Of a DNA stretch of 63,716 bases, positions 26,981-43,568 are shown one piece after another. Source of the stretch: Candidatus Peregrinibacteria bacterium (lineage in GTDB: Bacteria; Patescibacteriota; Gracilibacteria; UBA1369; LOWO2-01-FULL-3); contig JACQRJ010000027.1 of the NCBI GenBank assembly GCA_016206505.1, forward strand, positions 1-63,716. The letters run 5' to 3'. Within the stretch, counting starts at the first letter, position 1. Each line of letters begins with the position of its first letter. A program made the translations under genes and the position numbers. The notes beneath the pieces were generated by a model. It was not told the origin of the DNA and did not search any database. It worked only from the letters and a program-made list of their open reading frames with translations.

Positions 26981-27320
26981 TGGTGGGCCTGCCTGGACTT
27001 GAACCAGGGACCAATCGGTTATGCATCTCACAACCGGTTTCCCGGCCTCTTTCGAGTTTGTAAGCGGGACTATCCCTTGAGTCCCATTGACTGGAACTCT
27101 CTGCCGTCTAGTCTCTACACCTTCCCGCTCATTGAGGGGGCTTGGCTCGGGATTGCCATAATCACATTGTGATTTTAGGTTTCCCCGAATTTGACAGATT
27201 CTACCCCGCATACGCGGGGCAGCCCGTTGATATTGACGCATATCGTGCTAGAAACAATCCACAGCACGAGTTAGCGTCGTATCTTTAAGCCGACTGCTCT
27301 AACCACTGAGCTACAGGCCC
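26981..27320 (-). tRNA. tRNA(CAU), most similar to tRNA-Ile2/elongator Met type, interrupted in the anticodon loop
   Basis: Exon 1 is GGGCCTGTAGCTCAGTGGTTAGAGCAGTCGGCT. Exon 2 is CATAACCGATTGGTCCCTGGTTCAAGTCCAGGCAGGCCCACCA. Joined, they give a canonical 76-nt cloverleaf with the loop CU-CAU-AA. It resembles my recollection of E. coli ileX. Confidence 0.85.
27024..27287 (-). ncRNA. Group I intron (IC3-like, no ORF) in the tRNA anticodon loop
   Basis: Minus-strand core elements GUCAAAUUCGGGGAAACCUAA, GGCAAUCCCGAGCCAAGCC and GGAAGGUGUAGAGACUAGACGGCA match the conserved P4-P6 and P7/P3/P8 cores of the Azoarcus and Anabaena tRNA introns. It ends GAGAUG (omega-G). The IGS-like GGGCUG can pair with exon CGGCU(U). 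Confidence 0.8.
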
Positions 27321-38192: not shown

Positions 38193-38298
38193 GAAGTAGC
38201 GAGCAGACACGAGCGCAAGCGAGTGTCCATAGCCGAAGCGGTTCGCGAATTTAGCGAACCCGAAGGCTTTAGGAGAACCTTTCAAGAAATTTGCAAAC
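38193..38298 (-). repeat. Intergenic structured repeat, copy 1 (divergent/partial)
   Basis: Shares AGCCGAAGCG, the hairpin GGTTCGC-GAATTTA-GCGAACC and GGAGAAC..TTTCAAG with copies 2 and 3. Its right end overlaps the tmk stop. Confidence 0.75.
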
Positions 38299-38872
38299 TC
38301 TCTTTCACCACCTCCCAAAGCCGATCGGTCGTGATATCCCAATTTTTATCCACCAAAACTTTTTTCCAACAGTACTTCTCACCCAAATTCGCAAAAATTT
38401 CACGGCATTTTTCTGTTAATGCTTCATTTTTCTCATGCACATGCAGATTTTCAATCGCCGCAACATCGCGCACGCCTTCCATCAAAATTGCCAAACCTTC
38501 TTTGATAAGTTTTCCGTTTATACATTCCAGAAAATCCTCTTCAAGACCTTTTGCCATTCCCCAGGCGACCCCCGTGCCGATATAATCCTCGGCCACAACA
38601 TTTACACCATCCTCCAGCATCGAAATAAGTTTAGGCTGAAACTGATAACGATTCATCACAAACCACATTTGCAATTCATCCTCTGATATTTTTTGCTCAC
38701 CGCTGCGCAAAACATCGTTCAGCAAGGGGCCTGTCGGAGCAAGATCATAAATCGGATATTTGATATATTCCGCCTTCAAGCCATAACCTCGCAATTTTTC
38801 CACAAGCCTTTTGGCCTGTGTGGTTTTGCCAATATTGTTTATCCCGTAAAGTGTGATGAATTTTCCCCGCAT
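38282..38872 (-). CDS. tmk: Thymidylate kinase-like nucleotide kinase
   Basis: P-loop FITLYGINNIGKTTQAKRL resembles dTMP kinase GxDGxGKTTQ. 196 aa. Confidence 0.6.
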   Translation of the reverse strand: MRGKFITLYGINNIGKTTQAKRLVEKLRGYGLKAEYIKYPIYDLAPTGPLLNDVLRSGEQKISEDELQMWFVMNRYQFQPKLISMLEDGVNVVAEDYIGTGVAWGMAKGLEEDFLECINGKLIKEGLAILMEGVRDVAAIENLHVHEKNEALTEKCREIFANLGEKYCWKKVLVDKNWDITTDRLWEVVKESLQIS

Positions 38873-39108
38873 TAAGTTGTTGTAAAAATTTTAACAACAG
38901 AAAACCAACTGTTTAAAATCGCTTTCATTATAACATTTTCAATATTCAACGTATCGTTTCCTGCTTGATTTTTAGCAATATTTCTGTATCATACAAGTAA
39001 AGCCAAGCGGATCGTAACTACGGTTCCTCTCGGGTCGCACAGAAGCCTTTCCTGGACGGAAGGCTTTTCTGTAATACGATTAAATAACCTGGTGGAGATA
39101 GTTTTAAA

Positions 39109-39182
39109 GGGGCCGTAGTTTAATGGTAAAACGCTTGGCCGCGGCCCGAGAGATGCCGGTTCAAATCCGGTCGGCTCCACCA
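39109..39182 (+). tRNA. Atypical tRNA: anticodon loop CCGCGGC (GCG, C33) with an Ala-type acceptor stem (G3:U70, A73)
   Basis: GGGGCCG-TA-GTTT-AATGGTA-AAAC-G-CTTGG-CCGCGGC-CCGAG-AGAT-GCCGG-TTCAAAT-CCGGT-CGGCTCC-A-CCA folds as a canonical 74-nt cloverleaf. Confidence 0.7.
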
Positions 39183-39184
39183 GG

Positions 39185-39321
39185 CAAAGTAGCGAAATTT
39201 GCGCTCCAAAGCCGAAGTGGCACGCGAATTTAGCGTGACCGTAGGCGAAGGAGAACTTTCAAGCAAAATGCAAACGTACGTGCAGCATCTTGCGTAGAAA
39301 GTTCAGCAAATTCCTATTGAA
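39185..39321 (-). repeat. Intergenic structured repeat, copy 2
   Basis: 137 nt, ungapped. 123/137 identical to copy 3 by hand alignment. Starts 3 nt after the tRNA CCA end. Its right end overlaps the dut stop codon. Confidence 0.9.
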
Positions 39322-39784
39322 CAAAATTATATCCACCCGTACTCCCAAACCCTCCGCGGCTCTCTACAGAGATTTCTTCAACTTCCTGCCACTGAAACTT
39401 ATCAATTTTTACAAAAACTCCCTGAGCGATCTTTTCGCCGCGCAAAATTTTCACAGTATCCGAAGTGAAATTATAAACCAAAACTTTTATCTCATCATTC
39501 GGCCCGCAATAATCATGATCGATAATCCCAAAACCATGTGGTGGACTGATGCCTTTCTTTATTGGTGTACTGCTGCGACTTGCGATCACAAGCATGTAAC
39601 CTTTTGGCACTTCTACGATCAAATTTGCAGCAACCAAGCCGATTTTTGCCGGCAAAACCTCGGTGTCTTCGCGCGCGATAATGTCAAAACCAACCGAACC
39701 GTCGGTTTCATAGACCGGCAAAGGCAAGGATTTATCGATTCTTTTTATCTTAACTTCCATCACAAAGTAAGATAAATTACTCAA
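39314..39784 (-). CDS. dut: dUTP diphosphatase
   Basis: GSVGFDI, SRSS, GIIDHDY and C-terminal RGGFGSTG dUTPase motifs. Confidence 0.85.
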   Translation of the reverse strand: MSNLSYFVMEVKIKRIDKSLPLPVYETDGSVGFDIIAREDTEVLPAKIGLVAANLIVEVPKGYMLVIASRSSTPIKKGISPPHGFGIIDHDYCGPNDEIKVLVYNFTSDTVKILRGEKIAQGVFVKIDKFQWQEVEEISVESRGGFGSTGGYNFVQ

Positions 39785-43419: not shown

Positions 43420-43556
43420 CAAAGTAGCGAGATTTGCAATCCGAAGCCGAAGCGTCACGCGAATTTAGCGTGACCGGAGGCGAAGGAGAACTTTCAAACA
43501 AAATGCCAACGAAGGTGCAGCATTTTGTGTAGAAAGTTCAGCAAATCCCTATTGAA
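43420..43556 (-). repeat. Intergenic structured repeat, copy 3
   Basis: 137 nt. Hairpins GTCACGC-GAATTTA-GCGTGAC and ACAAAATGC-N13-GCATTTTGT. Ends 13 nt from the nusG stop. Confidence 0.9.
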
Positions 43557-43568
43557 AAACATCAAAAT

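What the first reader, a model, noticed from the sequence alone, without database searches (positions are those of the whole stretch)
39109..39182. tRNA with Ala-identity acceptor stem (G3:U70, A73) but anticodon loop CCGCGGC (GCG anticodon, C33 instead of U33)
- **Fold:** the 74-nt sequence folds into a normal cloverleaf, with U8, G18G19, a TTCAAAT T-loop and an encoded CCA.
- **Acceptor stem:** GGGGCCG/CGGCUCC-A-CCA has the GGGGC...GCUCCACCA pattern and the G3:U70 wobble, which is the main AlaRS identity element.
- **Anticodon arm:** CUUGG-CCGCGGC-CCGAG places GCG (reading Arg CGC/CGU) at positions 34-36. It puts C at the almost universally conserved U33, and U rather than the Arg determinant A at position 20.
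- **Context:** bacteria normally decode CGY with ACG (inosine), not GCG.
- **Possible explanations:** a mis-sense or recoding tRNA, a non-ribosomal aminoacyl donor (Fem-type cell-wall or lipid aminoacylation tRNAs are known to deviate from translational consensus), or simply an unusual tRNA-Arg.
Basis: partly seen in the sequence, partly recalled or inferred. Interest (0 to 1): 0.6.

Follow-up and report, generated by a model that had tools for sequence, protein, structure and literature searches.

The report
Alanine-type tRNA mimic with dedicated antisense RNA
The odd "tRNA-Arg" is one copy of a previously undescribed two-gene RNA module of Peribacteria-type ultra-small bacteria: a tRNA look-alike that keeps the alanine charging marks, plus a neighbouring small RNA whose sequence is antisense to, and co-evolves with, that look-alike.

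Summary
A 74-nt cloverleaf lies at 39109-39182 (+) with G3:U70, A73, encoded CCA, U20 and the loop CCGCGGC. Contigs from two groundwater runs match it exactly.

It is not a lone odd tRNA-Arg.
- **tRNA-like family.** It belongs to a family that probably derives from tRNA-Ala(GGC). G1-C72, G2-C71, G3.U70, G4-C69, A73 and CCA are kept in 26 of 28 copies. The anticodon arm is hypervariable and usually carries a 9-nt loop.
- **Partner small RNA.** Each copy has an sRNA gene of about 78 nt nearby (here 38998-39075), with its own promoter and terminator hairpin. About 50 nt of the sRNA are antisense to nt 1-33 and 34-46 of its own tRNA-like RNA, with the two blocks in swapped order.
- **Co-evolution.** Cognate pairs beat non-cognate pairs in 0 of 20000 permutations, in the first 12 pairs and in 17 pairs found later with an sRNA-only model. 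The hybrids hold 256 Watson-Crick pairs, 22 G.U pairs and 1 unpaired base.
- **Trans action.** The partner can lie downstream, upstream, far away or on the opposite strand.
- **Distribution.** About 22 of 151 genomes of the order have strong hits. None of 147 other sampled genomes of the phylum do.
- **Insertion here.** The module splits the otherwise adjacent dut-tmk pair.

Function is inferred: an sRNA that unfolds or silences an alanine-accepting tRNA mimic. The scan had already noted the leader/CCA inverted repeat on this same DNA.

The parts
38965..38992 (+). Promoter-like site P1 for the small RNA (TTGATT, 16 nt, TATCAT)
   Evidence: Consensus scan. -35/-10-like blocks stand at the same place in the homologues aligned. 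Inferred, not shown to be active.
38998..39075 (+). Antisense small RNA gene: sensor of about 42 nt plus terminator hairpin
   Evidence: Covariance model R1 (built from the sRNA region only) scores 59.5 bits here. RNAalifold gives an A1:A2 stem, hairpin P, a single-stranded anti-loop stretch, then the terminator hairpin.
39002..39009 (+). Block A1 (GCCAAGCG), antisense to tRNA-like nt 25-32
   Evidence: 8 bp, -16.1 kcal/mol. Complementary in all 12 first pairs and in the 17 later pairs.
39013..39027 (+). Hairpin P loop, 3' strand and linker, antisense to tRNA-like nt 1-12 (to nt 17 with a 2-nt internal loop; 5' acceptor strand, U8 A9, D stem)
   Evidence: 15 bp with a 2-nt internal loop, -19.8 kcal/mol. 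Present in 28 of 28 pairs and co-varies at positions 5, 6 and 11.
39027..39038 (+). Block A2 (CUCUCGGGUCGC), antisense to tRNA-like nt 34-45 (anticodon, G37, 3' strand of the anticodon stem)
   Evidence: 12 bp including one G.U, -26.7 kcal/mol. The part that pairs with the loop is single-stranded in the sRNA's own fold, so it could act as a toehold.
39040..39072 (+). Terminator-like hairpin with U-run, the conserved 3' module of the small RNA
   Evidence: Terminator scan gives 39047-39063 plus the U tract. 12 conserved pairs with compensatory changes.
39072..39077 (+). -10-like hexamer (TAATAC), candidate promoter P2 of the tRNA-like gene
   Evidence: A TAnnnT hexamer lies 20-29 nt before G1 in most of the 28 copies (own copy at -24; the TAATAC named here does not fit TAnnnT), including the copy on the opposite strand. 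Inferred.
39087..39097 (+). Block B (ACCUGGUGGAG) in the 5' leader of the tRNA-like RNA, complementary to the 3' acceptor strand, A73, CCA and trailer
   Evidence: -18.1 kcal/mol. Leader-trailer pairing occurs in all 28 copies and co-varies with the trailer (0 of 20000 permutations).
39109..39182 (+). Alanine-identity tRNA-like RNA (annotated tRNA-Arg GCG)
   Evidence: Family model R2 scores 84.8 bits here, against at most about 66 bits for ordinary tRNAs.
39183..39185 (+). Trailer bases (GGC) that pair with block B
38873..39313 (.). Insert between tmk (38282-38872, -) and dut (39314-39784, -), holding the module and a 137-nt repeat
   Evidence: dut and tmk lie about 10-70 nt apart in 13 of 13 relatives of the family, and 444 nt apart here.

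Best explanation
The gene is the tRNA-like half of a two-RNA module. The tRNA-like RNA probably derives from a tRNA-Ala(GGC). It keeps a full L-shape (D/T elbow), the alanine identity set and CCA, so it is probably processed like a tRNA and charged by AlaRS. Its anticodon arm is not used for decoding. The partner is a small RNA of about 78 nt, made from its own promoter and ended by its own terminator hairpin. The first ~50 nt of the sRNA are antisense to nt 1-33 and nt 34-46 of the cognate tRNA-like RNA, with the two blocks in swapped order. I infer that the single-stranded anti-loop stretch first pairs with the anticodon loop. The two flanking blocks then invade the anticodon stem (a four-way branch migration), the D arm and the 5' acceptor strand. 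That would unfold the tRNA mimic and block or destroy it. A separate leader-trailer helix (block B) sequesters the CCA end in the precursor. Shown: the family, the complementarity, its co-evolution and the ability to work in trans. Inferred: alanylation, the order of pairing steps, and the biological role. The role could be silencing of a potentially harmful alanine-accepting tRNA mimic, in the manner of an RNA antitoxin, or simple regulation.
For: - A paralogue in the same genome (C53:33141-33216) shows the same upstream complement, changed in step with its different 'anticodon'.
- In 12 pairs, A1 gives 8-12 bp and A2 gives 11-16 bp. The cognate sRNA is the best in every row. The summed energy is -485.9 kcal/mol against -289 +/- 25 for permuted partners, with 0 of 20000 permutations as good.
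- The hybrids hold 256 Watson-Crick pairs, 22 G.U pairs and only 1 internal unpaired base. This points to selection on RNA pairing, not a decaying DNA repeat.
- A model built from the sRNA alone (R1) found further copies. 17 new pairs show the same cognate match: -36.0 against -22.2 +/- 5.4 kcal/mol, 0 of 20000.
- These include copies with the tRNA-like gene upstream (G064, G156), 137-705 nt away (G195, G196, L044, G056) or on the opposite strand (G058). In G045 and G043 the coordinates from the two genome searches place it on the opposite strand as well.
- A third block, antisense to nt 1-15/18, is present in 28 of 28 pairs.
- Predicted dimer ensemble energy is -74.1 kcal/mol, against -57.2 for the two RNAs apart.
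- G1-C72, G2-C71, G3.U70, G4-C69, A73 and CCA are kept in 26 of 28 copies, while pairs 5-7 change by compensation and the anticodon arm is hypervariable.
- AlaRS is present in the genome.
- A canonical tRNA-Arg(GCG) already exists in the genome.
- No gene neighbour is conserved across the loci. The module is an insert in the dut-tmk junction.
Against: - There are no expression, processing or charging data.
- This copy, unlike most, has a regular 5-bp stem and a 7-nt loop with G37. Decoding of CGY as Ala cannot be excluded for it on structure alone.
- In most loci the sRNA lies directly upstream on the same strand, so a read-through precursor with pairing in cis is also possible.
- Several genomes carry the sRNA without a tRNA-like gene. 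For the second sRNA of G111 and G109, no other target was found in those genomes. The tRNA-like RNA may therefore not be the only, or even the main, partner.
- Whether the tRNA-like RNA is harmful is pure inference.
Confidence: 0.7

Rival explanations
1. A working translational tRNA. It would either be a mis-sense tRNA that inserts Ala at CGC/CGU, or an odd tRNA-Arg. The upstream sequence would be only a structured 5' leader that controls maturation.
For: It has an intact cloverleaf and elbow, a 7-nt loop, G37 next to G36, and encoded CCA. Natural mistranslating tRNAs with non-U33 are known (PMC11415595, read).
Against: C33 and U20 are present. A canonical tRNA-Arg(GCG) exists at C21. Homologues carry different 'anticodons', mostly in 9-nt loops. 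The loop co-varies with the sRNA, not with a codon. Partners on the opposite strand or upstream show that the 'leader' is a separate RNA.
Confidence: 0.1
2. A T-box-like device. The upstream RNA would sense the tRNA-like RNA through codon-anticodon and UGGN-NCCA pairing, and set read-through of its terminator.
For: The complement of the anticodon sits just before a terminator hairpin. Block B contains UGGU, which pairs with ACCA.
Against: No T-box or any other Rfam family matches the leader, even at E up to 10. The pairing spans about 35-40 nt, not 3-4 nt. Block B lies after the terminator U-run and pairs with the genomic trailer, so it belongs to the precursor. No conserved antiterminator was found.
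Confidence: 0.07
3. An aminoacyl donor for a non-ribosomal reaction (cell-wall cross-bridges or lipid aminoacylation). The small RNA would be its regulator.
For: The alanine identity is conserved without a conserved anticodon. This fits any use that needs only the acceptor end.
Against: No FemAB (PF02388) or MprF C-domain (PF09924) gene is present in the 84%-complete genome. No conserved neighbouring enzyme gene appears in 10 loci.
Confidence: 0.08
4. A decaying relic: a tRNA pseudogene with a leftover rearranged duplicate beside it, and no function.
For: The distribution is sporadic and a few copies are degenerate (G083, G018, G056, G109a).
Against: G.U pairs outnumber other mismatches 22 to 1 in the hybrids. 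The identity set is strictly kept in 26 of 28 copies. Compensatory change is seen across at least 5 families of the order.
Confidence: 0.03

Closest known systems
tRNA-Ala(GGC), for example the canonical one of relative G194 (L112:1501-1574)
   Same: It has the same acceptor identity set (G1-G4, G3:U70, A73, CCA) and the same short D arm type and T arm. It scores 69 bits with the family model R2. The aligned loop of the family (Y-U-G-N-C-A-C) resembles its loop AUGGCAU.
   Different: Most family members have two extra loop bases (a 9-nt loop) and irregular stems. The middle 'anticodon' base is A, U, C or G, and this copy reads GCG with C33. All have a cognate antisense sRNA, which the canonical tRNA-Ala lacks (no R1 match within 1.5 kb).
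tRNA-like domain of tmRNA (SsrA)
   Same: It is an alanine-accepting tRNA mimic with G3:U70, a T arm and CCA, and it does not decode through an anticodon.
   Different: The RNA here has a full D arm and anticodon arm, and no tag reading frame or pseudoknots. RF00023 scores 30 bits against a cut-off of 47. 28 of 31 genomes searched (G000 and 30 relatives), including module carrier G030, have SmpB, so the module does not replace tmRNA.
Antisense RNA control pairs: CopA/CopT and hok/sok type I systems, and RNA-RNA (type VIII) toxin-antitoxin pairs (comparison from my own knowledge)
   Same: A small RNA with a terminator hairpin is dedicated to one neighbouring RNA. There is a likely loop or toehold first contact followed by a four-way junction. 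Specificity is cognate, several orthogonal copies can occur per genome, the distribution is sporadic, and orphan antisense genes exist.
   Different: The two RNAs are usually encoded on the same strand at separate sites, so complementarity is kept by co-evolution and not by overlap. The antisense blocks are swapped in order. The target is a tRNA mimic, not an mRNA. Toxicity is untested.
T-box riboswitch
   Same: It is an RNA that pairs with a tRNA anticodon and, through UGGN, with the NCCA end.
   Different: There is no Rfam match. The pairing here covers nearly two thirds of the tRNA body and would unfold it. The partner is a private tRNA-like RNA, not a cellular tRNA. No downstream protein gene is controlled.
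Pseudo-tRNA 'tRNAOther' of Bacillus cereus (PMC3399842, abstract seen)
   Same: It is a tRNA-shaped RNA that is thought not to act in translation.
   Different: It has a different sequence and lineage, and no partner antisense sRNA has been reported for it.

Membership tests
tRNA (Rfam RF00005) | Cloverleaf scoring above the gathering threshold | tested here: met
   62.7 bits against a cut-off of 29.
Bacterial tRNA-Arg | A20 in the D loop, C35, and U/G36 as ArgRS determinants (established knowledge) | tested here: not met
   U20 is present. C35 and G36 are present. The genome's canonical tRNA-Arg(GCG) at C21 has the GGAUAGAGC D loop with A20.
Decoding elongator tRNA | 7-nt anticodon loop with U33 and a purine at position 37 | tested here: not met
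   This copy has a 7-nt loop with G37 but C33. Most family members have a 5-bp stem with a 9-nt loop.
AlaRS substrates (tRNA-Ala identity) | G3:U70 wobble, A73, G2:C71 and G4:C69 | tested here: met
   All four are present here and in 26 of 28 family members.
AlaRS substrates (tRNA-Ala identity) | Actual charging with alanine | not testable with these tools
   The AlaRS gene is present at G000:C5:31206-32555. There is no biochemical evidence.
tmRNA | RF00023 score above the cut-off, a tag reading frame and pseudoknots | tested here: not met
   30 bits against a cut-off of 47. ARAGORN finds no tmRNA.
T-box leader (RF00230) | Stem I with specifier loop, and the T-box antiterminator sequence | tested here: not met
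   No match at E up to 10 over 38940-39340.
RNA-RNA toxin-antitoxin pair | One RNA is toxic when made alone and is neutralised by the other | not testable with these tools
   Only indirect hallmarks are seen: tight linkage, cognate specificity, several copies per genome, orphan sRNAs, and insertion into a housekeeping operon.
Fem/MprF-type tRNA-dependent transfer | A tRNA-dependent aminoacyl transferase gene in the genome | tested here: not met
   PF02388 and PF09924 were not found in G000, which is 84% complete.

The most novel reading that the evidence does not exclude
An RNA-only addiction or conflict module. The harmful partner would be an alanine-charged tRNA mimic with an expanded anticodon loop, which could miscode or shift the reading frame on the ribosome, or could tie up AlaRS or EF-Tu. 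The protective partner would be a co-evolving small RNA, antisense in swapped blocks, that unfolds the mimic by toehold-started four-way branch migration. Orphan sRNAs would then act as anti-addiction genes.
Probability: 0.25. Interest if true: 0.92.

Novelty: categorically new. Interest (0 to 1): 0.82.

Why it matters
If it holds, this is a new class of bacterial RNA system: a private tRNA mimic with its own co-evolving antisense RNA, found in bacteria that cannot be cultured.

It bears on three questions:
- how cells tolerate or exploit tRNAs whose charging identity and anticodon disagree;
- whether RNA-only toxin-antitoxin-like modules exist beyond the few known cases;
- how two RNAs encoded at separate sites keep about 35-40 base pairs of complementarity through evolution.

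The module is small (about 230 bp) and fully defined by sequence. It could therefore be tested directly in a laboratory host. Its natural orthogonal pairs could also serve as parts for RNA engineering.

For annotation, it shows that calls of 'tRNA-Arg/Asp/Thr/Ser/Val' at these loci in Peribacteria genomes are misleading.

Tried and rejected
- **tmRNA substitute.** Rejected. RF00023 scores below its cut-off, and SmpB is present in 28 of 31 genomes searched (G000 and 30 relatives), including a module carrier. The lack of SmpB in G000 probably reflects its 84% completeness.
- **Known RNA family for the leader.** None was found in Rfam 15, even at E up to 10.
- **Conserved protein neighbours.** None was found.
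- **Fem/MprF genes.** Not found.
- **TadA.** The only deaminase-family match lies inside a 377-aa frame and was not resolved.
- **Expression.** No RNA holder was listed among public runs.
- **Viral contigs.** A tRNA-like pattern found nothing.
- **Metagenome pattern scan.** It added only one new copy, because the pattern was strict.
- **Targets for orphan sRNAs.** The second, orphan sRNA of G111 and G109 has no other G.U-tolerant 14-nt target in those genomes.
- **First model.** My first model, a cis leader that locks its own tRNA, was downgraded once partners upstream, far away and on the opposite strand were seen.
- **'Leaderless' copy L044.** It turned out to have its sRNA 141 nt upstream.
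- **Literature.** Searches found no description of such a pair.
- **Nested fold predictions.** Predictions for the full locus disagree between copies, because the real pairing scheme crosses and cannot be drawn as nested pairs.

Full report
**1. The observation**

ARAGORN finds a 74-nt tRNA at 39109-39182 (+) and calls it Arg (GCG). Rfam's tRNA model scores it at 62.7 bits.

Assembled contigs of two groundwater runs cover the gene without a single difference. The runs come from one study, and one may be the source sample. So the loop is not an obvious assembly error.

The genome is a 1.15-Mb bin of 68 contigs, 84% complete. Record titles of homologous loci name Candidatus Peribacteria or Peregrinibacteria, in line with earlier notes of this scan.

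A whole-genome tRNA inventory shows a normal tRNA-Arg with anticodon GCG, U33 and A20 on contig C21. CGY decoding therefore does not depend on the gene in question.

**2. A paralogue and a conserved upstream region**

The inventory also shows a paralogue at C53:33141-33216. It has the same acceptor stem, D arm and T arm, but a different anticodon arm, and ARAGORN calls it Asp.

The roughly 110 nt upstream are also homologous. The upstream region holds stretches complementary to the anticodon arm, and these stretches differ between the two copies in step with the arm. Here GGGU-CGC faces GCG-G-CCC. In C53, GGGU-GAC faces GUC-A-CCC.

Pattern scans found more copies:
- 6 of 205 genomes of the order;
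- further Peribacteria/Peregrinibacteria and unnamed bins among 185,579 species genomes;
- one metagenome contig.

**3. The complementarity is real and co-evolves**

In 12 aligned copies, block A1 pairs with the 5' half of the anticodon arm (8-12 bp). Block A2 pairs with the loop and the 3' half (11-16 bp). The cognate upstream region is the best partner in every row. The summed energy is -485.9 kcal/mol, against -289 +/- 25 for shuffled partners, and 0 of 20000 permutations reach it.

The 278 hybrid pairs are 256 Watson-Crick pairs and 22 G.U pairs, with a single internal unpaired base. Neutral decay of a DNA repeat would give A.C mismatches as often as G.U pairs. The pairing is therefore selected at the RNA level.

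**4. The upstream region is a separate small RNA**

Folded alone, the upstream region forms an A1:A2 stem, a small hairpin P, a single-stranded stretch that is the complement of the anticodon loop, and a conserved hairpin followed by a U-run. This is the layout of a small RNA with a seed and a terminator.

A covariance model of this part only (R1) found it in many more genomes of the order. 40 of 151 genomes have a hit at E up to 0.01, and about 22 have a hit at E up to 1e-6. Several genomes have multiple copies.

A model of the tRNA-like RNA (R2) separates family members from ordinary tRNAs. Full-length family members score about 70-100 bits (three degenerate copies score 54-65) and ordinary tRNAs at most about 66.

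Around the new sRNA hits, the cognate tRNA-like gene takes several positions:
- directly downstream, in most cases;
- 137-705 nt downstream, with another terminator in between (G195, G196, L044, G056);
- upstream of the sRNA (G064, G156);
- on the opposite strand (G058, checked in sequence; by coordinates also G045 and G043).

These 17 pairs played no part in building R1, yet they show the same cognate match: -36.0 against -22.2 +/- 5.4 kcal/mol, with 0 of 20000 permutations as good. The pairing must therefore be able to work between two separate transcripts.

**5. Extent of the antisense relation**

A third block exists. The loop and 3' strand of hairpin P, plus the linker, are antisense to nt 1-15/18 of the tRNA-like RNA in 28 of 28 pairs. 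It co-varies at positions 5, 6 and 11.

The sensor part of the sRNA (about 50 nt) is thus the reverse complement of nt 1-33, with the D-loop part replaced by four bases that close hairpin P, followed by the reverse complement of nt 34-46. It is an antisense copy of the 5' two thirds of the partner, with the two blocks swapped at the anticodon loop.

The arrangement crosses, so nested folding programs cannot draw it. It is topologically feasible as a four-way junction. The free anti-loop stretch can pair with the anticodon loop first, and the two stems can then exchange strands. For this locus the predicted dimer ensemble energy is -74.1 kcal/mol, against -57.2 for the separate RNAs.

Only the T arm and the 3' acceptor strand stay uncovered. 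In the precursor, the CCA end and trailer pair with block B of the tRNA-like RNA's own 5' leader. This holds in all 28 copies and co-varies with the trailer.

A -10-like hexamer sits a few bases (about 2-13) before block B in most copies, including the inverted one. This suggests the tRNA-like gene has its own promoter.

**6. What the tRNA-like RNA is**

G1-C72, G2-C71, G3.U70, G4-C69, A73 and CCA are kept in 26 of 28 copies. Pairs 5-7 change by compensation, and the anticodon arm is hypervariable. A wobble pair that is never 'repaired' to G-C or A-U points to selection for the wobble itself. By established knowledge, G3:U70 is the main AlaRS determinant. AlaRS is encoded in the genome.

Most copies are 76 nt, with a 5-bp anticodon stem and a 9-nt loop. 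The aligned core is Y-U-G-N-C-A-C, with all four bases seen at N. The copy in this window is 74 nt with a 7-nt loop.

The nearest ordinary tRNA found is a canonical tRNA-Ala(GGC) of a relative, which has the same short D arm. The family therefore probably descends from a tRNA-Ala(GGC).

Within G000, the nearest sequence is the C53 paralogue. Among normal tRNAs, tRNA-Ala shares the most acceptor positions, and tRNA-Arg is not close.

**7. Genomic behaviour**

Neighbouring genes differ at every locus. In 13 of 13 relatives of the family, dut is followed directly by tmk. In G000 the two genes are 444 nt apart, and the gap holds the module on the opposite strand plus a 137-nt repeat. The module was therefore inserted here.

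Some genomes hold three or more pairs, each with its own specificity (G195 and G045). Some sRNA genes have no tRNA-like partner:
- no tRNA-like gene lies within 1.5 kb of the sRNA in G066, G150, G047, G019 and G108, and no family-level R2 match is listed for these genomes;
- the second sRNA of G111 and G109 has no other target in those genomes.

Outside the order, none of 147 sampled genomes of the phylum has a match at E up to 1e-6.

**8. Interpretation**

The best-supported reading is a two-RNA module: an alanine-identity tRNA mimic, and a dedicated antisense small RNA that can unfold it.

What the mimic does once charged is not known. Tight linkage, cognate specificity, several orthogonal copies per genome, orphan antisense genes, patchy distribution and insertion into an operon are the hallmarks of toxin-antitoxin-like or conflict modules. 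I give that reading about one chance in four. A plain regulatory pair is equally possible.

A role as a translational mis-sense tRNA cannot be excluded for this particular copy, but the family pattern argues against it.

No T-box, tmRNA, Fem or MprF link was supported. I found no description of such a pair in Rfam 15 or in the paper library.

Noticed in passing
window 39185-39321, 43420-43562 and 38226-38298; also G000 contigs C34, C5, C17, C39, C42, C21, C56, C13, C51, C2, C10: A structured repeat of about 137 nt, with a long hairpin at 39251-39306, has at least 12 copies in the genome. Most lie directly 3' of tRNA genes (Trp, Arg-CCU, Arg-UCG, Arg-GCG, Lys, Ser, Met, Val). One follows the tRNA-like gene studied here. 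The contig depths also show it is multi-copy.
   Followed up: partly
window 27043-27274 (-): A group I intron matches at 55.6 bits, above Rfam's threshold. The host gene was not examined.
   Followed up: no
G000:C38:18790-18863 (+) and G000:C26:34-106 (-): Two paralogous, poorly folding 'tRNA-Arg' calls have a tmRNA-like 3' end (GGGUUCGAUUCCCGGCA.CUCCACC). They include the best sub-threshold RF00023 match in the genome (38.5 bits for C38; C26 scores 22.3). At C38, a 17-nt piece of the sequence is repeated after a terminator. They may be fragments or att-site duplicates of ssrA. No SmpB or full tmRNA was found in this 84%-complete bin.
   Followed up: partly
G000:C21:17359-17435: The canonical CGY-reading tRNA-Arg has anticodon GCG, not ACG. 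The only 'ACG' call is the aberrant C38 sequence. This suggests the lineage does not use inosine-34 tRNA-Arg. TadA was not resolved.
   Followed up: partly
L077 (G111:C3, sRNA at 1274-1352 and 1501-1581) and L075 (G109:C10, sRNA at 181-259 and 402-480): These loci show a tandem layout: sRNA, then tRNA-like gene, then a second sRNA with a different specificity. No target for the second sRNA exists in the same genome.
   Followed up: partly
L111 (G058:C4: sRNA 1408-1482 +, tRNA-like 1501-1578 -); also G045:C4 and G043:C53: The tRNA-like gene with its leader and trailer is inverted relative to the sRNA, so the two genes converge on the sRNA terminator, which is bidirectional in form. The inverted layout recurs in several genera of one family.
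   Followed up: partly
G000:C5:31206-32555: The AlaRS match lies in an open frame of only 652 aa and covers Pfam tRNA-synt_2c positions 2-436 of 552. The enzyme may therefore be shorter than the usual bacterial AlaRS.
   Followed up: no
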